From positions 7,025-71,024 of the IMG/VR virus record IMGVR_UViG_3300033388_005371: 64,000 nt of DNA. One strand, given 5' to 3'. Positions 53,906 through 63,905 of this stretch are shown one piece after another. The notes under the pieces were generated by a model. The model was not told the DNA's origin, made no database searches, and saw nothing but the letters and a program-made list of their open reading frames with translations. This DNA is from a virus. Every line of letters starts with the position of its first letter. Position 1 is the first letter of the stretch. Both the position numbers and the translations under genes were made by a program.

Positions 53906-54439
53906 ATGGAAAATTTAGATAAAAGAAATACTGGGTTTTTAAAAGACTTATTAAAATATGGTAAAACTGGTGAAAAAGACATCGCTAGTTTTTTTAAATC
54001 CAGAGGTTATACAATTAATAAGACTAAAAATGATAGTAAATATGATTTTAAAATGACCAAAAACGGTAAAACAAAAACCGTTGAAGTTAAATCCGATTAT
54101 AAATGTATAACACCATCAATACCGTCACTACCAACTAAAGATACTGGTAATATATTTATTGAATACCAGTCTTGGGGTAAAGCTGGTGGAATTGAGGCAA
54201 CAGAAGCGGACGTATTTGCTTACATGTTTGGTGCCCTAAAACCTAGAGAACTATGGTTAATATCAGTATATGATTTAAAAGAATTGATTAAAAATAATAA
54301 TTTCATCACCACTAAAGATTCTGGTGATGAAGGTAGTGACACGGAAGGATATTTAATACCAAGATGGGAACATTTTAATTCATTCGCTGTGTACAAAGAA
54401 ATAGATAATTTATGGAAGATACAAAAAAACCAAAATTAA
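53906..54439 (+). CDS. PD-(D/E)XK nuclease (start trimmed to ATG 53906)
   Basis: GEK...YDF...VEVKSD...TGNIFIEY...GIEATEAD; TACCTTTG promoter element at 53893. Confidence 0.7.
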   Translation: MENLDKRNTGFLKDLLKYGKTGEKDIASFFKSRGYTINKTKNDSKYDFKMTKNGKTKTVEVKSDYKCITPSIPSLPTKDTGNIFIEYQSWGKAGGIEATEADVFAYMFGALKPRELWLISVYDLKELIKNNNFITTKDSGDEGSDTEGYLIPRWEHFNSFAVYKEIDNLWKIQKNQN

Positions 54440-54906
54440 CAATAGAATTGGTACCCACAACTTGTTTTTTTTCTAATGTTAGAAGTCAAATACCAAAAAA
54501 AGAATGGGATAGACTGCGTAAGGAATCATATAAGAACGCCAAATATAAATGTGAAGTTTGTGGTAGTACTGGATTAGAACAAGGCTATAAACACGCCCTA
54601 GAATGTCACGAAATATGGTCATATGATGATGAAACCAAAACACAAAAGTTAGAGGGTTTAATTTCATTATGTCCAAGATGTCACCAAGTAAAACATATTG
54701 GTAGAACAACAATAATTGGTAAGCAAGCGGAAGCTTTTAAACAGTTAGAAAAAGTTAATGGGTGGGACCATAAACAAGTTGTGGATTATGTTGCTGAAGC
54801 GTTCCTTACACATCGTTGGCGTTCTAATTGGGAATGGAAACTAGATATAAGTATGCTTACTGAGGTTTACGGGGTTGATAAAAAAATAATTAAGGAAGGG
54901 CGTTAA
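54412..54906 (+). CDS. HNH endonuclease
   Basis: CEVCG...LECHEIW...LISLCPRCHQVKH. Confidence 0.85.
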   Translation: MEDTKKPKLTIELVPTTCFFSNVRSQIPKKEWDRLRKESYKNAKYKCEVCGSTGLEQGYKHALECHEIWSYDDETKTQKLEGLISLCPRCHQVKHIGRTTIIGKQAEAFKQLEKVNGWDHKQVVDYVAEAFLTHRWRSNWEWKLDISMLTEVYGVDKKIIKEGR

Positions 54907-55150: not shown

Positions 55151-55465
55151 TTATTTAGTTGGATTATACGCTTTATAACTAGCAACCAATTCATCACCAG
55201 CCTTTATTTTTTTAATCGTTCTAATCATCAAAACTTCAACTTGATACTCTTGATGAAATCTCATAAAATTTTCAATATTAGGGGTTTCCGAATGATTATA
55301 AAACCCACCCAAAGGTAAGCGAATTAACCCATTATCCCACCTAGAATCCTTAACGTGAGTAATCCCTAATTCAACTCCAATATCAATATCTTCTACTGCA
55401 AATAATCCTAACCCATCAATATCACTACTCTTAATGGTTAATTGTCTCGGTAACGGTCTATACAT
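55151..55465 (-). CDS. Minimal SET-domain methyltransferase
   Basis: SDIDGLGLFA, FYNHSETPN, IKAGDELVASY. Confidence 0.88.
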   Translation of the reverse strand: MYRPLPRQLTIKSSDIDGLGLFAVEDIDIGVELGITHVKDSRWDNGLIRLPLGGFYNHSETPNIENFMRFHQEYQVEVLMIRTIKKIKAGDELVASYKAYNPTK

Positions 55466-55848: not shown

Positions 55849-56463
55849 TTACGCTCTTAATTTTTCTAATAATTCTGAAAATTCACCATAGTAATCCCTA
55901 GTATCAAATTCATCTGGGTGAATACTCTTAAACTTAAAATACATCTCATTGCAAACACTAAAGTCCACAATCTTTTGGTACTCCTTTAATTGTAAACCAA
56001 AGTGTAATATTCTCAATGCGTGGAACATCCCCTTTTTAGCCCTATCCTTGAACCCAGACTTAGCTTGTTGGTTAGCAACGTGACGACTAGAAGATGCCTT
56101 AGAAATAATCTTCTTAATCATAGTCTTTGTATCCCAGTTAGTAACCTTGAAGTCCCAACTATTTTTAAGCACAATATCGTCAGGTAATGACAAACACTCT
56201 AATGAGGTAACGTCATAATCATTTATTGCGTTAATGAACCCACCTCTGGAATAAACAACACCTTGAATTAAACCATCCACACTAGTTAATGGTGAAGTTA
56301 ACTTAAAGGAACCATCACCTAATATCCCACTTTTCATAATGATTATGAAATCACTATCCGACTTAGAATCAGCCGTACCATACACTTGACTCCCATAAGG
56401 AAAAATAGATAATACTTCACCCTTAATAGAAAGCTCATTTATTATCTTATCTGAATCTATCAT
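55849..56463 (-). CDS. Pol-beta-superfamily nucleotidyltransferase
   Basis: YGSQVYGT...SDSDF (GS...DxD), KGMFHALRIL. Confidence 0.8.
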   Translation of the reverse strand: MIDSDKIINELSIKGEVLSIFPYGSQVYGTADSKSDSDFIIIMKSGILGDGSFKLTSPLTSVDGLIQGVVYSRGGFINAINDYDVTSLECLSLPDDIVLKNSWDFKVTNWDTKTMIKKIISKASSSRHVANQQAKSGFKDRAKKGMFHALRILHFGLQLKEYQKIVDFSVCNEMYFKFKSIHPDEFDTRDYYGEFSELLEKLRA

Positions 56464-56762: not shown

Positions 56763-56823
56763 ATTGTTCTGTTTTTATTTAATCCGTTAAAAATATAACC
56801 ATATTAGAGCGCATTAAAACACA

Positions 56824-57079
56824 TAATAACATTGTGTAAGTAAACATAAAATTTACTTAACAATAATATCTTGTAGTTTTTCAATTCTATTTAGCCACTT
56901 ATCACGCTCATAGATATTGCTGCCAACCGCATAAATAAACCTTATACCTTTTTGTTTTACTAACATTTCTTTTCTTAACTCATACTTTACGACTTTTTTA
57001 CAGCAAAAATCTATGAGCTTTCTAACTATCCATTGTTTCATAATCGTAAATTTTTTGTTTCTTATACTTAGCGTTATAC
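56824..57079 (-). mobile_element. attC-like site whose loop holds a 62-aa ORF
   Basis: GTATAAC-GCTAA-GTATAAG-AAACA-AAAAATTTAC ... GTAAATTTT-A-TGTTT-A-CTTACAC-AAT-GTTATTA. Confidence 0.6.
56853..57041 (-). CDS. Small protein encoded inside an attC-like stem
   Basis: 62 aa; TTACGATT-ATG ... AAG-TAA-ATTTT. Confidence 0.55.
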   Translation of the reverse strand: MKQWIVRKLIDFCCKKVVKYELRKEMLVKQKGIRFIYAVGSNIYERDKWLNRIEKLQDIIVK

Positions 57080-57403
57080 ACCATATTCACGATAATAAAC
57101 CTTCCCATCTTTTTTGTTTTTTAGATTAACAGAGAATTTACCATCAGTACATTCTACATCCCAATCTTCATCTTTCTCTTCTCCTTTTGCTCTGTTAAAA
57201 AACAAAAGTCTATTGCAGTCACAAGAGTAGTTGTTCTCTTCCCAATTAAAAACAGATGGGTGCTCGTCACCTATTTCTAAAATTTCGTGGGTTTCAAATT
57301 CTCTTATTTCACCAGTATCGTTTTTCCTAATTTCAGCAATGCATTCTACCCGAATACAGTTTTTTATTTGGTGACTTTCTTTTTTTACCACTATCCAATC
57401 CAT
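57074..57403 (-). CDS. Cassette-like protein with a CDCNR motif
   Basis: 109 aa; WEENNYSCDCNR; stop codon lies in a TAAC box. Confidence 0.65.
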   Translation of the reverse strand: MDWIVVKKESHQIKNCIRVECIAEIRKNDTGEIREFETHEILEIGDEHPSVFNWEENNYSCDCNRLLFFNRAKGEEKDEDWDVECTDGKFSVNLKNKKDGKVYYREYGV

Positions 57404-57580
57404 CTATTTTTAAATTAAGTTTTATAAAAATACGGTGCATAACACCCTTCTTTAAATTCATTCATAATATAATACTTTTAAAATACTCTATTCATTCCAC
57501 CAGTGCGTTATTCCCACTTCTTTAGCATAGTAACACCAAGTGTTGTGGTCGCTTACCATTGTAATACCTTGTGTGTCATT

Positions 57581-57823
57581 TTCATAACACAATAAAAATT
57601 ACTTACGTTCCTCTACTTTATATCTGTTGCTTAAAATAGAATAGGCTTCTAATTCTGATAGTTCATATTTTCTAACCATACTTAGCAATTCAAAAATATC
57701 GTTCCATTGTTTAAGTTGCTTACCTATTGTATTTCCTTCAATCTTTAATTCTTTCTTTGTTAATTTTCTTATATCGCTCATATTCGTAATTTTTAAAACA
57801 CTTCATACAATCGTCCGTTATGC
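57581..57823 (-). mobile_element. attC-like site with a partly deleted right arm and a 60-aa ORF in the loop
   Basis: GCATAAC...AAAAATTACG-AAT-ATG ... AAG-TAATTTTTA...GTTATG. Confidence 0.45.
57599..57781 (-). CDS. Small protein flanked by AAAAATTAC/GTAATTTTT inverted repeats
   Basis: 60 aa. Confidence 0.55.
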   Translation of the reverse strand: MSDIRKLTKKELKIEGNTIGKQLKQWNDIFELLSMVRKYELSELEAYSILSNRYKVEERK

Positions 57824-58132
57824 TTTATAAAAAAACCAATAAAGCAAACTAACACTAATTTAGGTAGAACTATATTTTTTCCCACCCAAATTGTGTGGTG
57901 TAACAGTATTTATCAAAAAAACACAAACCCCAACCATCCACTTTTATACCATCTTGTAGAGCAAATAACCCACACTCAATAAAACCTAAAATCTTAAACG
58001 TTTTTATCCCTTTTTTCATCTTAAAAGTGCCTAACATATAAAATATAGTTAGGACTTGTTTAATTATTTAAGTGTATTACAAGCCACACTTAATAGCTTA
58101 TTAATCAACAACCTTAGTTTCTATACCACAAA

Positions 58133-58690
58133 TCATATATTTAAATTTAATGTCGCAATAGCATCAATCTTGAAATGCGAAATAAACTTATTGAAGTAAA
58201 ATTTTTTACCACCAACAGTTTTGTAATTCGACTTGTAAGTAATCTCACCCAACCTAACATTACATGAACCAACACTAACATCCTTTGACAACAACACACC
58301 CCTGTGTGGTGGGGATGAATGCCATGAGTAAACAATATATAATAACGCATAATCAATAATCGATGGGTCATCGGTACCACCCAACGGTGCTGAATAAGAA
58401 TCCCCATAATAATCCCCTAAGAATTTATTAAATGAATCTAAGTCTGATTGAGTAGAAGCTAATGTAAATTGCCTAGTAACACACTCGTAAGTATTTGTGC
58501 CAGAATGCATCAAACTATCATTGAGAAACATGTTAATCGTATTAACCTTTGAAATAATATGTAACTCAGAATCGTACACTAATGGCACAACACCATTCGC
58601 AACCCTATATTCGTTAACGTAATCAAATAATAATGAATCTTGTCCGAATGTACTCACCGTAATCAATAAAAATAATACTAATAATTTCAT
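58133..58690 (-). CDS. Secreted CAP (SCP) domain protein (start trimmed to MKLLVL)
   Basis: Signal peptide; VNEYRVANGVVPL, HS, E, WHSSPPHRGVLL. Confidence 0.8.
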   Translation of the reverse strand: MKLLVLFLLITVSTFGQDSLLFDYVNEYRVANGVVPLVYDSELHIISKVNTINMFLNDSLMHSGTNTYECVTRQFTLASTQSDLDSFNKFLGDYYGDSYSAPLGGTDDPSIIDYALLYIVYSWHSSPPHRGVLLSKDVSVGSCNVRLGEITYKSNYKTVGGKKFYFNKFISHFKIDAIATLNLNI

Positions 58691-58709
58691 ATCTGTTAGT
58701 TTTGTTTCA

Positions 58710-58741
58710 CAAATATAATAACAATAACTAATATAACCAAA
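58710..58741 (-). promoter_or_regulatory. Bacteroidota-type promoter
   Basis: TTTG-N20-TATATTTG. Confidence 0.75.
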
Positions 58742-58978
58742 TAATTTCCCCATTATTTTCTAAATAATTACTACGTGTTTAATACATAATTCACCCACAC
58801 ACTTAATCCCCATTCATATATTTTTTTAATTTATTTTTTAGGGAAGAAGGGGGCTGGGGGATGAAGGGTCCGTTTAGGGCGGCATTACATAAAAAACCGC
58901 GATTCCAGCCAATTAGAGCGGTTTTTTAAATCCTCGATTCCTTAACCCTATCCACATTTTAAATAAGTATATACTTAC

Positions 58979-60445: not shown

Positions 60446-60584
60446 ATATTTTTTACCAAAAATTTCTAGAAAATTTTTTTTTAAAAAGAGGTAACTTATA
60501 TTTTTTACCAAAAATTTCTGAAAAATTTTTTTTTAAAAAAGGGGTAACTTATATTTTTTTGCCAAAAATTTCTGAAAAATTTTT
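60446..60584. repeat. About 52-bp A/T-tract tandem repeat, about 2.6 copies
   Basis: atatttttt(a/g)ccaaaaatttct(a)gaaaattttt...ggtaactt units near 60446, 60498 and 60551. Confidence 0.85.
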
Positions 60585-60620
60585 CTGTGACATCATGTGC
60601 CCTATTTTAGGGTCGCCACG

Positions 60621-60682
60621 GAGGGGGGTATAAGAGGGTTTACGGGGGGAGGGGTACGGGGGGAGGGTCTACCCACCCTCCC
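60621..60682 (+). other. G-tract cluster (G-quadruplex-capable) with an overlapping hairpin
   Basis: Six runs of 3-6 G; tacggggggaggg x2; GGGAGGGT-N6-ACCCTCCC. Confidence 0.7.
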
Positions 60683-60732
60683 TACGTCATTATCCCTTAT
60701 ATATCACCTAATTAATTATTAATATATACAAA

Positions 60733-60783: not shown

Positions 60784-61374
60784 TTATATTGTTACACCTT
60801 GTAATTTTAATTCGTTAATTGAGTTAAAAGTAAATCGTCTAATTTTATCGTTTCTAAGGTTAGCAAGTTTTTTTATTTCTTTTTTTGCTAATGTTTTTGG
60901 TCTACTATTTACATTCGGGTAAGTACCTTTAACTAAAATTGTTTTTCTCTCACACACACCACTAACAAAAACCTTTCCACTCTCCTTGTTTTGTTTAATT
61001 CCTTTAGCAAGAGTAATAAAAGCGTCAGTTTGTCCATCAGAACGTCTTATTGTACTATCTCCGTCCTTTCTAAGTTGTTCTTTTTCTGTTTCTGTTGCAG
61101 TAAGTTTAGCAAGGCTAGTAAGTAATTCAGAATAAGCTTTCGTTGCTACCTCTTCACCGTATTTTTTAATAACAGTTTTAATGTTTAATTGTTTAAGTGT
61201 TTCAAGGTCTTTATTTAACATATTAGTGTAGTTATACCCTACTAATAATGTTTGGTTACTTATTTCCCCTTTAGAGTTCTCGTAACCTCTCACACCAACG
61301 AATGTTGTACCGTTAATAGTTTTAGCCGTTACTAATGCTTTAATCCCTCTAAGTGTTTCTTTTAATGTGTTCAT
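60784..61374 (-). CDS. Hypothetical early protein
   Basis: 196 aa; strong promoter at 61402-61433. Confidence 0.65.
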   Translation of the reverse strand: MNTLKETLRGIKALVTAKTINGTTFVGVRGYENSKGEISNQTLLVGYNYTNMLNKDLETLKQLNIKTVIKKYGEEVATKAYSELLTSLAKLTATETEKEQLRKDGDSTIRRSDGQTDAFITLAKGIKQNKESGKVFVSGVCERKTILVKGTYPNVNSRPKTLAKKEIKKLANLRNDKIRRFTFNSINELKLQGVTI

Positions 61375-61401
61375 AATTTCTATTGTTTTAATTTGACATT
61401 A

Positions 61402-61433
61402 CAAATATAATAAACTTTTATATATTTACCAAA
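61402..61433 (-). promoter_or_regulatory. Early Bacteroidota-type promoter in a repeated block
   Basis: TTTG-N20-TATATTTG followed by TAATGTCAAATTAAAACA. Confidence 0.8.
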
Positions 61434-61449
61434 CTTTTTTGTAATTAAA

Positions 61450-61569
61450 TTACATAAATTTATATAATTCTTTTTCAAATTCTTTTTCAGCTTGTTTTTT
61501 AATTAGTTTGTATTTAATACGACTACCAATTAGTAAAACAATAATAAATAATAATAATAGGGTCACCAT
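61450..61569 (-). CDS. Small membrane protein (not in the ORF track)
   Basis: MVTLLLFIIVLLIGSRIKYKL... Confidence 0.45.
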   Translation of the reverse strand: MVTLLLLFIIVLLIGSRIKYKLIKKQAEKEFEKELYKFM

Positions 61570-61571
61570 AA

Positions 61572-61748
61572 TTAACGTTTATTTGTTTTGTTTGGAATCA
61601 TTGGGGCTAACATACCCATCCAAAATAATGAACTGAATACGAACCCACAATACCAATCCATTGGGGTTGTTGGCATCACACCAAAAGCTGTTGTGAATAC
61701 TGCTAATAAAATAACGCTTAGAAAATAAATAAATAACATTGACTTCAT
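61572..61748 (-). CDS. Small two-TM membrane protein (58 aa, not in the ORF track)
   Basis: MKSMLFIYFLSVILLAVFTTAFG...FVFSSLFWMGMLAP; promoter block at about 61758-61807. Confidence 0.55.
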   Translation of the reverse strand: MKSMLFIYFLSVILLAVFTTAFGVMPTTPMDWYCGFVFSSLFWMGMLAPMIPNKTNKR

Positions 61749-61815
61749 AATATATATTGTTTTAATTTGACATTACAAATATAATAAACTTTTATTAATA
61801 TTCCTAATTTATATA

Positions 61816-62127
61816 CTATATTTTTTCAATATTATTTGTTTTAGTGTTTAATTTATAATTGTTATCACTTTCATTGTAAGGTTTATTTTTACTCCACATT
61901 GGGTAGAAACACCCACTATAATATCTAACACTATACACTTTATTACCAACATGAATATTACAATCTCTATATTTAGAAATATTCATTTGGTCGGCTAATT
62001 CCGTTGTATAAACATGCCCATTTAATTTCTTAAATTCACCATCACCCCAATTTTCAATACCTCTAGCAGTTATTAAGCCATTAGTGTATAATTTTTTCCA
62101 ATCTATTCTAGTTAATTCAGTATCCAT
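61816..62127 (-). CDS. Hypothetical early protein
   Basis: 103 aa; YYSGCFYP; promoter at 62155-62186. Confidence 0.6.
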   Translation of the reverse strand: MDTELTRIDWKKLYTNGLITARGIENWGDGEFKKLNGHVYTTELADQMNISKYRDCNIHVGNKVYSVRYYSGCFYPMWSKNKPYNESDNNYKLNTKTNNIEKI

Positions 62128-62154
62128 AATTTTATGTGTTTTAATTTGACATTA

Positions 62155-62186
62155 CAAATATAAGAAACTTTTATATATTTACCAAA
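62155..62186 (-). promoter_or_regulatory. Early Bacteroidota-type promoter in a repeated block
   Basis: TTTG-N20-TATATTTG plus the same downstream block. Confidence 0.8.
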
Positions 62187-62228
62187 GTTTTTTGTATGTT
62201 TTTTTATTTTATTTTAAATCACTTTTTA

Positions 62229-62260
62229 TTTGGTGGATACAAACATTATGCTTATATTTG
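62229..62260 (+). promoter_or_regulatory. Divergent Bacteroidota-type promoter with no sizeable ORF downstream
   Basis: TTTG-N20-TATATTTG on the + strand. Confidence 0.6.
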
Positions 62261-62476
62261 TATTGTTGATATAAAAGTGAATTGGGCTGAGTTAAATCTT
62301 AGAAGAGTAGACTCCAACCTACCTTATATTTTTTTTGTGTAATAAAAGTCGTATAAAAATTAGGTTTATTGGATTATTTTTTGTACCTTTACATATTATA
62401 CACTATACTAATATTAGTATAATTAAATCACCCAACATAAAACAATCTCATAATTTTATGTTGGGTAATTAGTTAT

Positions 62477-62821
62477 TTAGTCTTCAACAAATTTAATTGT
62501 ATCGTAATCAATAGAGTTTTCTAACACATCAAAATCGTATAGGTTTGTGTTTAGTAGTTGGAAATAACATTTAACACTTTCGACAATTATATAGTAATAG
62601 TTTTTAGTAATATTATTGGTGCTTACTGTCACTATTTTATTAATATTATTTTTATTACTTTTGTTAGCCATACCAAACACACCACCAAGTGTGTTAATCA
62701 CTTGTCCTTTACAATTTGGGAAAACAATAAGGTCGTGTTTAGTATTTCCATATGGTTCGGTACATTTAATATCTTTAAAGAATTGCACTTGTTTTACTGT
62801 TTTGAATGTTTTGTTTGACAT
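62477..62821 (-). CDS. Hypothetical early protein
   Basis: 114 aa; promoter at 62849-62880; hairpin at about 62430-62466. Confidence 0.55.
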   Translation of the reverse strand: MSNKTFKTVKQVQFFKDIKCTEPYGNTKHDLIVFPNCKGQVINTLGGVFGMANKSNKNNINKIVTVSTNNITKNYYYIIVESVKCYFQLLNTNLYDFDVLENSIDYDTIKFVED

Positions 62822-62941
62822 AATTTTAATTATTTTAATTTAACATTACAAATATAAGTATAATATATTGAACTACCAAATATAATACTGTTTTATTTAC
62901 ATTTGTGTGCACAAATGTGTACCTAAGCTAATACTATTTTC

Positions 62942-63250: not shown

Positions 63251-63304
63251 AGATAACACGGTATAAAACGCCATTAAAACAGGCGTTTATACTCAACGTT
63301 ATAG
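63251..63304 (-). mobile_element. attC-like site (54 bp)
   Basis: CTATAAC-GTTGA-GTATAAA-CGCC-N9-GGCG-T-TTTATAC-CGT-GTTATCT. Confidence 0.65.
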
Positions 63305-63840: not shown

Positions 63841-63905
63841 GCATATAACACTAGCTATATGCCATACTCGTTCCTCGTTCAGCACATAGCCAAACCGTTA
63901 TATGC
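63841..63905 (-). mobile_element. attC-like site (65 bp)
   Basis: GCATATAAC-GGTTT-GGCTATGTGC-N19-GCATATAGC-TAGT-GTTATATGC. Confidence 0.65.

What the first reader, a model, noticed from the sequence alone, without database searches (positions are those of the whole stretch)
56824..57823. Genes encoded inside the loop of the attC-like hairpin
Seen: the 62-aa ORF 56853..57041 sits between arms that pair over about 25 bp (GTATAAG-AAACA-AAAATTTAC with GTAAATTTT-TGTTT-CTTACAC, with bulged A residues). The 60-aa ORF 57599..57781 has the same layout. Both begin TTACG-A(A/T)T-ATG and end AAG-TAA-(A)TTTT, so the stem supplies both the translation start context and the stop codon. Known: classical attC loops are short and non-coding. 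Inference: a second cargo position in which the recombination site itself carries a gene.
Basis: partly seen in the sequence, partly recalled or inferred. Interest (0 to 1): 0.8.

Follow-up and report, generated by a model that had tools for sequence, protein, structure and literature searches.

The report
Small phage genes framed by attC-like hairpins
Two tiny genes in a marine T4-like phage each sit between the two halves of an integron-type (attC-like) hairpin that supplies their start context and stop codon, and the same hairpin frames carry many unrelated small genes in other phages, which points to a previously undescribed way of packaging and swapping genes.

Summary
ORF1 (56853-57041, minus strand) lies between arms matching at 20 of 23 positions. 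These arms extend outward to an ATAAC...GTTAT box. ORF2 (57599-57781) has the same layout but only a 10-bp inner helix plus a 6-bp outer box.

The arms belong to a hairpin family shared by marine Flavobacteriia phages and Bacteroidota chromosomes. In the chromosomes it forms arrays of about 70 repeats beside a Xer/IntI-like tyrosine recombinase. These arrays carry the integron signature: each hairpin's 3' box is complementary to the next hairpin's 5' box. The phage cassettes show the same signature.

In other viral and metagenome contigs the ORF1-type frame holds 4 unrelated small proteins and the ORF2-type frame holds 12. Cargo is exchanged exactly between the ATG and the last codon(s) before the stop codon. 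The helix next to the start and stop codons covaries in at least 8 variants. dN/dS is 0.08-0.57.

Best reading: attC-type cassettes whose gene sits in the hairpin's variable loop. The normal cargo slot is reduced to about 11 nt. Recombination itself is not shown. A PeSL-like regulatory and homologous-recombination reading remains a serious rival. This is a new variant of a known kind.

The parts
57073..57077 (-). 5' outer box (R''-like) of the ORF1 frame: ATAAC followed by G. It contains the TAA stop codon of the upstream 109-aa gene.
   Evidence: Nine different upstream contexts abut the same frame exactly at AAC|G in other contigs. Metagenome contigs diverge at 57077 and 57084.
57046..57067 (-). 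5' arm of the ORF1 frame (22 nt). It ends 4 nt before the ATG.
   Evidence: Matches the 3' arm at 20 of 23 positions. Conserved with unrelated cargos in L002, L003 and L067-L078.
56853..57041 (-). ORF1, 62 aa, the cargo in the hairpin loop. Its last codon AAG and its stop TAA lie in the 3' arm.
   Evidence: Six homologues at 85-100% identity, all 62 aa. dN/dS 0.21 from 3 synonymous and 3 nonsynonymous differences. No Pfam or PHROG match.
56834..56856 (-). 3' arm of the ORF1 frame (23 nt, one bulged T). It also forms a local 8-bp hairpin on its own.
   Evidence: The relative L002 has T where the window has a C opposite an A, which makes that 7-bp segment perfect.
56803..56830 (-). 3' outer box GTTAT (56830..56826) plus a short tail that ends in a degenerate next box (CTCTAAT). 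This is the almost empty ordinary cargo slot. The ORF1 module shared with L002 ends here.
   Evidence: The blastn module boundary is 57084..56804. Tail classes are visible.
57074..57403 (-). 109-aa gene in the ordinary between-hairpin position. It is flanked by GTTATGCACC upstream and GGTGTATAAC at its stop.
   Evidence: The module 57444..57073 is shared at 93% with L005-L007, whose neighbours on both sides differ.
57439..57511 (-). Hairpin-like element between ORF2 and the 109-aa gene (ATAACG ... GTGTTAT). The relatives L005-L007 have a canonical family hairpin at this position.
   Evidence: Model R1 did not detect it in the window.
57817..57822 (-). 5' outer box (CATAAC, followed by G) of the ORF2 frame.
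57786..57795 (-). Inner 5' arm of the ORF2 frame (10 nt). It ends 4 nt before the ATG.
   Evidence: Identical in the G001 homologue despite dS 0.81 in the gene.
57599..57781 (-). ORF2, 60 aa, the cargo in the loop. It ends CGT AAG TAA, as do many unrelated cargos in the same frame type.
   Evidence: The homologue in G001 is 87% identical in protein, with dN/dS 0.08 (16 synonymous, 9 nonsynonymous).
57583..57602 (-). Inner 3' arm of the ORF2 frame (57602..57593), then TTGT, then the 3' outer box GTTATG (57588..57583). The outer part of the arm seen in relatives is missing here.
63843..63903 (-). Short (gene-free) member of the same hairpin family: outer box, unpaired spacer, second stem, small loop.
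   Evidence: Hit by the bacterial-only model R1 at 46 bits, E=4.5e-10. A 55-nt stretch is 100% identical in G001 while the flanks are unrelated.
63253..63302 (-). Second short hairpin. Its arms (ATAACG..GTATAAAC / GTTTTATAC..GTTAT) resemble the outer half of the ORF1 frame.
   Evidence: Not detected by model R1 at E<=1.

Best explanation
ORF1, and in eroded form ORF2, are 'framed mini-gene cassettes'. Each is a small protein-coding gene that occupies the variable terminal loop of an attC-type imperfect hairpin.

Layout on the coding strand:
- outer box (Y)AAC-G
- an unpaired spacer of 4-6 nt
- a 10-23-bp arm that ends 4-6 nt before the ATG
- the gene
- the complementary arm, which starts in the last codon(s) or the stop codon
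- a spacer of 3-4 nt
- outer box GTT(R)(Y)

The frame therefore supplies both the start context and the stop codon.

The hairpin family is the one that builds integron-like cassette arrays in Bacteroidota chromosomes. It is spread through the hyperplastic regions of marine Flavobacteriia phages.

Shown: the anatomy; family membership of the short hairpins; the integron-type box signature; the same frames with many unrelated cargos; covariation of the helix; purifying selection on cargos; single-gene mosaicism with breakpoints at the boxes and at the inner arm ends.

Inferred:
- Whole cassettes move by site-specific recombination at the AAC/GTT box of the folded single strand. The enzyme would be a host Xer/IntI-like recombinase.
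- Cargos are swapped between frames by homologous recombination in the conserved arms.
- Because phage genes lie on the strand that folds, the same stem in the mRNA pairs the initiation region with the stop region and probably modulates translation or processing.
For: 1. Arms and layout.

2. Class, not a one-off.
- Gene-flanking inverted repeats are enriched among 312 called genes of G000, G001 and G002. A score of 24 or more occurs in 15 genes (4.8%) against 1.4% of cross pairs.
- Further framed genes are listed. One of them (G002:28347-28496) has the canonical 5' arm.

3. Same frame, different cargo.
- ORF2-type arm pattern: 27 matches in 25 viral stretches. Nineteen have a 45-92-aa ORF ending in the matching 3' arm, and these fall into 12 protein clusters.
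- ORF1-type arms: 11 metagenome and 3 real viral stretches, with 4 unrelated cargos.
- A metagenome contig joins 56858 to 57038, that is, both arms with other or no content.

4. Covariation.
- At least 8 variants of the innermost helix change on both sides together.
- Cognate pairing averages -7.1 kcal/mol against -3.9 for non-cognate.

5. Coding. dN/dS is 0.08-0.57 in 7 pairs.

6. attC kinship.
About 60 of the 80 listed titles name Bacteroidota.
- G006 has 68 same-strand copies in 70 kb, ending about 480 nt from a 383-aa tyrosine recombinase.
- In that array R'(n) is 9/9 complementary to R''(n+1) in 22 of 33 neighbours. Own R''/R' is at control level.
- Phage framed cassettes: 7.35 of 9 for own R'/next R'', 4.96 for own R''/own R', control 4.74, n=23.
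- Model R1 links bacterial and phage hairpins.

7. The motif strand folds better than its complement in 32 of 32 bacterial, 12 of 12 phage short hairpins and 8 of 8 framed cassettes.

8. Polaribacter phage P12002L carries the family next to its methyltransferase genes. Qi et al. 2023 (PMC9892861; abstract and section 3.4 read) report a cluster of attC sites there, one of which was recombined by IntI1.
Against: - No recombinase of the Phage_integrase family is in the 71-kb record. The record is estimated to be only 20% complete.
- The recombinase beside the bacterial arrays scores below the curated integron-integrase cut-offs. The match skips model positions 182-238.
- Breakpoints are of four kinds: AAC|G, GTT|, arm|ATG and cargo|last codons. 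A single-site recombinase explains only the first kind, or the first two.
- The 109-aa gene module starts at the 3' box of the preceding hairpin, not at its 5' box.
- No bulged extrahelical bases are evident in the canonical hairpins. Their mismatches are mainly G opposite T.
- No empty form of either frame type was found.
- Model R1 does not detect the framed elements or the second short hairpin in the window.
- MFE folds prefer local structure.
- A loop of about 190 nt is far beyond the described attC sizes. From Bouvier 2009 passages (PMC2727003), the variable terminal structure ranges from 3 nt to a branched structure.
- I could not confirm that the sites tested by Qi et al. are the hairpins I saw in P12002L, because the supplements are closed.
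- The G.T excess could partly reflect C-to-T bias on a G-rich coding strand.
Confidence: 0.55

Rival explanations
1. PeSL-like regulatory cassettes only. The hairpins would be conserved intergenic RNA or regulatory stem-loops (terminator, attenuator, RNase processing or translation control). Because they are repeated, they would serve as patches for ordinary homologous recombination that shuffles single genes, as described for promoter-early stem-loops of T4-type phages. No site-specific recombinase would be involved. The resemblance to attC would reflect shared ancestry or convergence of hairpins.
For: - The terminase is T4-like, and the region is a hyperplastic block of small ORFans.
- Homology with relatives is confined to single-gene modules.
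- All four kinds of breakpoint lie at the edges of conserved linker segments, as homologous recombination predicts.
- In phages the hairpins are always on the coding strand. All matches in G001 and G002 are on the gene strand.
- Stop codons sit in or just before the 5' box, and start and stop codons sit in the stem.
- Some hairpin loops enclose only the start codon and the first ~10 codons of the next gene. That looks like a translational device.
- The sense-strand duplex is more stable in 8 of 8 cassettes.
- PeSL papers: PMC2839356 (sections 13 and 16 read) and PMC4122927 (abstract read).
Against: - Whole frames abut 9 (ORF1-type) and 14 or more (ORF2-type) different upstream contexts exactly at AAC, with only 4-5 nt of shared sequence outside. 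That is too little for homologous recombination.
- The R'(n)/R''(n+1) complementarity persists across genes of about 330 nt. It is the same signature as in the bacterial arrays beside a recombinase.
- In those arrays the larger ORFs lie on the opposite strand, so the strongly folding strand there is not the mRNA.
- No sigma-70-type or Bacteroidetes-type promoter is part of the frames, unlike PeSLs.
Confidence: 0.28
2. Miniature transposon-like elements. Each small gene with its terminal inverted repeats would be a non-autonomous element moved by a transposase encoded elsewhere.
For: - Terminal inverted repeats flank a short cargo.
- Copies with identical ends occur in many contexts.
Against: - No target-site duplication is visible at the junctions.
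- Internal sequences are unrelated between copies, while transposon families share them.
- The outer ends are the family-wide AAC/GTT boxes, with next-neighbour complementarity.
- No transposase was seen among the 40 window proteins scanned, 10 per call.
- The arms covary between cassettes, so no single end sequence exists for a transposase to recognise.
Confidence: 0.05
3. Chance inverted repeats in AT-rich DNA, combined with shared start and stop contexts.
For: - 825 inverted-repeat pairs are found in 14 kb at loose settings.
- ORF2's 10-bp helix is reached by 1.6% of random placements.
- ATAACG (31 copies, 23.6 expected) and GTAAWTTTT (7 copies, 10.8 expected) are not enriched window-wide.
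- A crude ATAAC...GTTAT hairpin scan did not beat its null.
Against: - ORF1's arms are reached by 2 of 5000 random placements.
- The same arms recur with at least 16 unrelated cargos in dozens of independent contigs.
- Both sides of the helix covary.
- A model built on bacterial copies hits the phage hairpins.
Confidence: 0.02

Closest known systems
Integron attC sites and gene cassettes, including clusters of attC sites without integrase (CALINs) reported in virulent phages (Qi et al. 2023, PMC9892861)
   Same: - Imperfect hairpin with a conserved AAC...GTT outer box.
- G after AAC.
- Unpaired spacer, second stem and variable top.
- Sequence varies while structure is kept.
- One strand folds better than the other.
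- The same repeat type is associated with unrelated small ORFan genes.
- The 3' box is complementary to the next 5' box.
- Arrays lie beside a tyrosine recombinase in the host phylum.
- The family is present in Polaribacter phage P12002L, where attC sites were reported.
   Different: - The gene lies inside the hairpin (the loop is 180-280 nt), with start and stop codons built into the stem. The ordinary slot is reduced to about 11 nt.
- Stems are 10-23 bp rather than a short L box.
- No clear extrahelical bases.
- Phage genes are on the strand that corresponds to the folding (bottom-like) strand, opposite to the larger genes in the bacterial arrays.
- No integrase in the phage record.
- The array recombinase is Xer-like and below the IntI cut-offs.
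- Cargo exchange also occurs at the inner arm ends.
PeSLs (promoter-early stem-loops) of T4-type phages (Arbiol et al. 2010, PMC2839356; Comeau et al. 2014, PMC4122927)
   Same: - T4-like phage.
- Hyperplastic region of small ORFans.
- Repeated intergenic stem-loop cassettes next to the stop codon of one gene and the start of the next.
- Single-gene insertion, deletion and replacement between relatives.
- G-T pairs in the stems.
   Different: - PeSLs are direct repeats that contain a sigma-70-type promoter, and the stem-loop is local.
- Here there is no recognisable promoter.
- The two halves of one stem lie on either side of a gene.
- The boxes carry an integron-type next-neighbour signature.
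- The family is shared with bacterial chromosomes.
Long-range processing stems that enclose a whole gene (the stems flanking 16S and 23S rRNA cut by RNase III); this comparison is recalled, not taken from a call
   Same: A roughly 20-bp helix is formed by sequences flanking a complete gene on the transcribed strand.
   Different: The enclosed unit is a protein-coding mini-gene. Cleavage was not tested. The helix includes the stop codon and abuts the start codon.

Membership tests
Integron attC site | Imperfect inverted repeat R''-L''...L'-R' with conserved AAC and GTT triplets | tested here: met
   (Y)AAC...GTT(R) boxes bound ORF1, ORF2 and all framed cassettes and short hairpins.
Integron attC site | Unpaired central spacer between the R and L stems, and a G after AAC on the recombined strand | tested here: met
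   The spacers are 4-6 nt on the 5' side and 3-4 nt on the 3' side, and AAC-G is invariant in A1 and in the frames. Feature definitions come from Bouvier 2009 passages.
Integron attC site | Extrahelical bases in the L stem that mark the recombined strand | tested here: inconclusive
   ORF1's frame has one bulged T. Canonical hairpins show G opposite T rather than bulges. Strand asymmetry exists but is of another kind.
Integron attC site | Size about 57-141 nt with a short, non-coding variable top (range recalled; one search gives 3 nt up to a branched structure) | tested here: not met
   Framed elements span about 250-400 nt and their loop is a complete gene. Short family members (50-130 nt) do meet the feature.
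Integron attC site | Cassette signature: the distal part of R' belongs with the next cassette's R'' | tested here: met
   Bacterial array: 22 of 33 neighbours are 9/9 complementary. Phage framed cassettes: 7.35 of 9 against 4.96 for own R''/own R' and 4.74 for the control.
Integron attC site | Array adjacent to an integron integrase (IntI) with attI | tested here: inconclusive
   No Phage_integrase-family match in the 71-kb phage record. The bacterial arrays lie beside a tyrosine recombinase that scores 178.5 bits on TIGR02249 (cut-off 265) and 192.7 on NF040815 (cut-off 220). attI was not sought.
Integron attC site | Recombined by an integron integrase as folded single strand | not testable with these tools
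   Only literature is available: one P12002L attC was recombined by IntI1 (PMC9892861 section 3.4). Whether that site is one of the hairpins seen is unverified because the supplements are closed.
PeSL (promoter-early stem-loop) cassette | Host sigma-70-type early promoter joined to a local stem-loop terminator | tested here: not met
   No -33/-7 Bacteroidetes-type or sigma-70-type hexamers were seen by eye in the frames. The window's host-type promoter repeats are a separate family at 61.3-62.9 kb. No promoter scan was run on the frames.
PeSL (promoter-early stem-loop) cassette | Repeated intergenic motifs at the borders of ORFan insertions, deletions and replacements between related T4-type phages | tested here: met
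TIR-bounded miniature transposon | Target-site duplication and family-wide conserved internal sequence | tested here: not met
   No duplications at the junctions, and internal sequences are unrelated.

The most novel reading that the evidence does not exclude
Virulent marine phages of Flavobacteriia run an integron-type cassette system of their own kind. In it the recombination hairpin doubles as an expression frame. The stem carries the start context and the stop codon, so whatever occupies the loop is delivered as a ready-made small gene. Whole frames move at the AAC/GTT box through a host Xer/IntI-like recombinase acting on folded single-stranded DNA, and cargos are swapped between frames through the conserved arms. 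The loop would then be a second cargo position and possibly a nursery for new small (host-takeover or anti-defence) proteins. The large Bacteroidota arrays would be an undescribed branch of integrons that exchanges cassettes with phages.
Probability: 0.25. Interest if true: 0.9.

Novelty: new variant of a known kind. Interest (0 to 1): 0.8.

Why it matters
- How integron cassettes arise, and how a gene becomes joined to an attC site, is an open question. Here the gene sits inside the site, and one frame type carries a dozen unrelated genes. That makes the gene-site relationship directly testable.
- It links three things usually treated apart: hyperplastic ORFan regions of T4-like phages, attC clusters recently reported in virulent phages, and large hairpin-repeat arrays beside a Xer-like recombinase in Bacteroidota. 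IntegronFinder 2.0 (PMC9024848, passages read) reported few integrons in that phylum.
- If the stems act on DNA, this is a route for gene flow between host integron-like arrays and lytic phages.
- If the stems act on RNA, it is a compact device that ties the initiation region of a mini-gene to its stop codon.
- Either way the frames are short, portable and experimentally tractable.

Tried and rejected
- **Close relatives in cultured phages.** The 1.9-kb region, the first 25 kb, the 71-nt hairpin and a whole ORF2-type cassette gave nothing or only chance matches in the 50,697 phage records.
- **Known RNA families and tRNAs.** None in the window. Only one tRNA in 8 bacterial or MAG loci.
- **Motif enrichment window-wide.**
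  - GTAAWTTTT 7 copies against 10.8 expected.
  - ATAACG 31 against 23.6, not significant.
  - TTACGAWTATG 4 against 0.07, but the two extra copies lie inside long genes.
- **Crude ATAAC...GTTAT hairpin scan.** Top scores did not exceed a Markov null, so the approach was replaced by comparative data and a covariance model.
- **T4-type late promoter.** TATAAATA appears on the antisense side of several 3' arms, but the motif does not precede the window's structural genes. Dropped.
- **Long-range pairing in unconstrained folds.** Not the MFE.
- **Empty frames.** 0 stretches for the ORF2-type arms and 2 chance in-gene hits for the ORF1-type arms.
- **Integrase in the record.** None.
- **Expression.** No RNA holder was listed for the stretch.
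- **Laying contigs of 4 runs.** This showed only single modules. Uncovered parts are not interpreted.
- **ORF1 homologues.** Six, all close ORFans with no name.
- **Pfam and PHROG.** Nothing for ORF1, ORF2 or the 109-aa gene.
- **Print searches.**
  - Genes inside attC sites, phage attC-like hairpins, inverted repeats in T4-like hyperplastic regions and repeats in Polaribacter/Cellulophaga phages found no description of this layout. The library is limited to open-access papers and preprints.
  - The P12002L genome paper mentions no repeats.
  - Larouche and Roy 2011 gave nothing on loop length.
Full report
**Setting**

The window is bases 7025-71024 of a 71,024-base IMG/VR virus record with about 31% G+C. 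CheckV rates it 20% complete. Its major head protein, prohead protease, portal and large terminase match phage families. The terminase is T4-like: the best cultured matches are Flavobacterium phage vB_FspM_immuto and cyanomyoviruses at about 30% protein identity.

From about 42 kb to the end, most genes are small, of unknown function and on the minus strand. This is a hyperplastic region in the sense used for T4-type phages. The finding lies in this block, so all elements below are read on the minus strand.

**Check of the observation**

ORF1 (56853-57041, 62 aa) is flanked by a 22-nt 5' arm (57067..57046) and a 23-nt 3' arm (56856..56834). They match as an inverted repeat at 20 of 23 positions with one bulged T. 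Two of 5000 random placements of window pairs at the same spacing reach this score.

ORF2 (57599-57781, 60 aa) has a perfect 10-bp inner helix only. That is reached by 1.6% of random placements.

Both genes begin TTACGA(T/A)T-ATG and end AAG-TAA-(A/T)TTTT. The core GTAAWTTTT is not enriched in the window (7 copies, 10.8 expected). However, 4 of the 7 copies are the four borders of these two genes.

Reading outward, both frames end in a box. For ORF1 it is ATAAC-G (57077..57072) upstream and GTTAT (56830..56826) downstream. For ORF2 it is CATAAC-G upstream and GTTATG downstream. The stop codon of the preceding 109-aa gene lies inside ORF1's 5' box.

Unconstrained folds of about 300 nt prefer local hairpins to the long-range stem. 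The two-strand duplex of the ORF1 arms is nevertheless -22.4 kcal/mol.

**A hairpin family**

The same boxes bound two short, gene-free hairpins in the window (63903..63843 and 63302..63253). Each has an outer box, an unpaired spacer, a second stem and a small loop. The outer half of the second one resembles the outer half of the ORF1 frame.

Related viral contigs carry many copies. These contigs are G001 (71 kb), G002 (37 kb, rated 98% complete) and others. The conserved 5' half is (Y)AAC-GGTTTG-GCTATG, placed right after a stop codon. The top is variable and the closing half is ...TATAG(G/C)-NNNN-GTT(R).

Loop size forms a series:
- a few nt;
- 40-60 nt;
- loops that contain the start codon and about the first ten codons of the next gene (for example G001:413, 9049, 12006, 37548);
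- loops that contain a whole small gene.

**Single-gene mosaicism**

ORF1, ORF2 and the 109-aa gene each have relatives at 84-95% nucleotide identity in other contigs. In every case the neighbours are unrelated.

The shared blocks are:
- 57084..56804 for ORF1
- 57444..57073 for the 109-aa gene
- 57828..57591 for ORF2

The junctions fall at the boxes. The 109-aa block runs from G|TTATGC to ATAAC|. The ORF1 block runs from AAC|G through both arms and its own GTTAT to the next, degenerate box CTCTAA(T).

Public metagenome contigs laid on the stretch cover only single modules. They diverge at 56859, 57077 and 57084. One contig joins 56858 to 57038, meaning it carries both arms with other or no content.

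**Same frames, other cargos**

- *ORF2-type 5' arm.* A pattern for it gave 27 matches in 25 viral stretches.
  - In 19 matches a 45-92-aa ORF starts a few bases after the arm and stops in the matching 3' arm. These ORFs fall into 12 unrelated protein clusters.
  - Many end ...ERK because CGT-AAG-TAA belongs to the frame.
  - Four matches precede long ORFs, two precede a 13-aa ORF, and two have weak 3' arms.
- *ORF1-type arms.* These occur in 3 real viral stretches and 11 metagenome stretches. They carry four unrelated cargos of 62, 56, 49 and 47 aa, all ending in the frame's AAG-TAA. One further viral hit is a chance in-gene match.
- *Empty frames.* None of either type was found.
- *All called genes.* Among 312 called genes of G000-G002, flanking inverted repeats scoring 24 or more occur in 15 genes. 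That is 4.8% against 1.4% of cross pairs.

**The pairing is selected and the cargos are genes**

The helix next to the start and stop codons differs between cassettes, but both sides change together. At least eight variants are seen. Cognate inner arms pair at a mean of -7.1 kcal/mol against -3.9 for non-cognate combinations. L002 has a T in the 3' arm where the window has a C opposite an A. That makes this 7-bp segment perfect.

dN/dS is below 1 in all seven cargo pairs. The clearest case is ORF2, with 16 synonymous and 9 nonsynonymous differences and dN/dS 0.08. ORF1 rests on only six differences. ORF1 has six close homologues and no named family.

**Kinship with Bacteroidota cassette arrays**

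By my count about 60 of the 80 listed titles name Bacteroidota taxa. Seventy-two of 127 matches have the closing half within 110 nt.

One Bacteroidales chromosome (G006) has 75 copies at one mismatch or fewer. Sixty-eight of them lie in one 70-kb same-strand array. The array ends about 480 nt from a 383-aa tyrosine recombinase. G007 is similar.

The recombinase's best families are XerA/integron-integrase (192.7 bits, cut-off 220) and integron integrase TIGR02249 (178.5 bits, cut-off 265, matched in two pieces that skip model positions 182-238).

In the 32-kb stretch examined, the 3' box of hairpin n is 9/9 complementary to the 5' box of hairpin n+1 in 22 of 33 neighbours. This holds across cassette bodies of 250-1600 nt. 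A hairpin's own two boxes match only at control level (5.67 against 5.61 of 9). This is the signature expected when cassettes are cut and joined inside the box, as in integrons.

The phage framed cassettes show the same signature: 7.35 of 9 for own 3' box against the next 5' box, 4.96 for a frame's own two boxes, and 4.74 for the control, with n=23 distinct cassettes. In most of them only about 11 nt separate the 3' box from the next 5' box. The ordinary cargo slot is therefore nearly empty and the gene sits in the hairpin.

The 109-aa gene shows the ordinary arrangement, with its flanking boxes complementary across the gene.

A covariance model built only from 32 bacterial short hairpins gave 32 matches at E<=1 in the phage material:
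- window 63843-63903 at 46 bits, E=4.5e-10
- 24 in G001 and 4 in G002, all on the gene strand
- 2 weak in G003
- 1 weak in P12002L

It did not find the second short hairpin or the framed elements.

Polaribacter phage P12002L carries clear family members beside its methyltransferase genes. Qi et al. 2023 report a cluster of attC sites with two methyltransferases in that phage, one of which was recombined by IntI1 (PMC9892861; abstract, section 3.4 and passages read). I could not check that these are the same sites, because their coordinates are in supplements that were closed.

**DNA or RNA?**

The motif strand folds much better than its complement:
- 32 of 32 bacterial hairpins (-25.5 against -14.0 kcal/mol)
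- 12 of 12 phage short hairpins (-19.6 against -9.8)
- 8 of 8 framed cassettes (-22.4 against -16.3)

The reason is that mismatches are mostly G opposite T.

In the bacterial array the larger cassette ORFs lie on the other strand. There the folding strand is not the mRNA. That points to single-stranded DNA, as for attC bottom strands.

In phages the genes are always on the folding strand, and the stem contains the stop codon and abuts the start codon. The same helix must therefore also form in the transcript unless it is melted. An effect on translation or processing is likely, but it is inferred. C-to-T bias on the G-rich coding strand may add to the G.T excess.

**Mechanism and how far it is shown**

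Shown:
- anatomy
- family membership of the short hairpins
- box signature
- frames reused with unrelated cargos
- covariation
- purifying selection on cargos
- breakpoints

Inferred:
1. Movement of whole cassettes by a Xer/IntI-like recombinase at the box. Whole frames abut 9 and 14 or more different upstream contexts exactly at AAC, with almost no outside homology. This favours a site-specific step.
2. Cargo exchange by homologous recombination in the 20-35-nt arms and in the conserved tails. This step is needed because breakpoints also lie at arm|ATG, at cargo|last codons and at GTT|.
3. An RNA-level role of the stem.

How unrelated genes first come to lie in a frame is unexplained.

**Comparison with what is known**

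The closest families are:
- integron attC sites and cassettes, including clusters reported in virulent phages (PMC9892861);
- the promoter-early stem-loops of T4-type phages, which mediate modular shuffling (PMC2839356 sections 13 and 16; PMC4122927 abstract).

The features that define attC are partly met: boxes, spacer, G after AAC, next-neighbour signature and strand asymmetry. They are partly not met: size and a non-coding top, clear extrahelical bases, and a bona fide IntI nearby. Activity is untested.

PeSLs differ in having a promoter and a local stem.

My searches found no description of a gene lying inside such a hairpin with its start and stop codons in the stem. I therefore rate this a new variant of a known kind.

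**Caveats**

- All relatives are uncultivated contigs, and some MAG contigs may be phage.
- Gene calls were simple ORF calls.
- ORF2's frame in the window is eroded.
- No experiment or expression data bear on the elements.

Noticed in passing
G006:C1:2556175-2628583 (loci L205, L206); G007:C3, C6, C10, C11 (L207): Bacteroidota genomes hold very large one-way arrays of the hairpin repeat. G006 has 68 copies in 70 kb and G007 has 78 copies. The arrays lie directly beside a 383-403-aa Xer-like tyrosine recombinase that scores below the integron-integrase cut-offs and lacks the part of the model where IntI has its extra segment. The arrays show the integron box signature. IntegronFinder 2.0 (PMC9024848, passages read) reports few integrons in this phylum, so this may be an undescribed integron-like branch.
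   Followed up: partly
G001:413, 9049, 12006, 37548 (L030, L031): Family hairpins in which the 3' arm lies inside the next gene. The loop then holds the leader, the ATG and about the first ten codons. This looks like a translational device.
   Followed up: no
window 61367-62890 (minus-strand genes): Four to five copies of a 40-77-nt upstream repeat. On the coding strand it reads as a Bacteroidetes-type promoter (TAnnTTTG-like -7 box; that consensus is recalled) followed by a conserved leader and the ATG. It is a different repeat family from the hairpins.
   Followed up: no
window 60449-60607 and about 60610-60700: Three tandem 53-nt repeats, next to an unusually C-rich stretch (on the minus strand) in an otherwise 30% G+C genome, inside a 373-nt intergenic gap.
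   Followed up: no
window 56785-56795 (upstream of the 78-aa gene); also G001, G002 and P12002L leaders: A conserved motif, (T)AACGGAT(T/A)AA, lies about 25-35 nt before the ATG of several genes. It often follows a hairpin or a lone 5' half. It may be a phage-specific promoter or leader element.
   Followed up: no
window 54412-54906 (+): An HNH endonuclease gene (PHROG 5200, E=2.9e-49) on the opposite strand inside the minus-strand small-gene block, 2 kb from the finding.
   Followed up: no
window 55151-55465, 55849-56463, 58133-58753 (all minus): Neighbouring genes encode a SET-domain protein, a nucleotidyltransferase, and a CAP/SCP-domain protein with a hydrophobic N-terminus.
   Followed up: no
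3' arms of several frames (e.g. G002:28347-28496 and the ORF2-type frames): The antisense strand of the 3' arm reads TATAAATA, while the sense 5' arm has TATGAAT(A/T). TATAAATA is the T4 late-promoter consensus (recalled). The motif does not precede the window's structural genes, so I dropped the idea. The regular G/A difference between the arms remains unexplained beyond G.T pairing.
   Followed up: partly
L081, L089, L104, L126, L139, L156, L157: Complete family hairpins on contigs binned to non-Bacteroidota MAGs (Nanoarchaeota, Patescibacteria, Comamonadaceae, Roseobacteraceae and others). This is either mis-binning or wider spread of the repeat.
   Followed up: no
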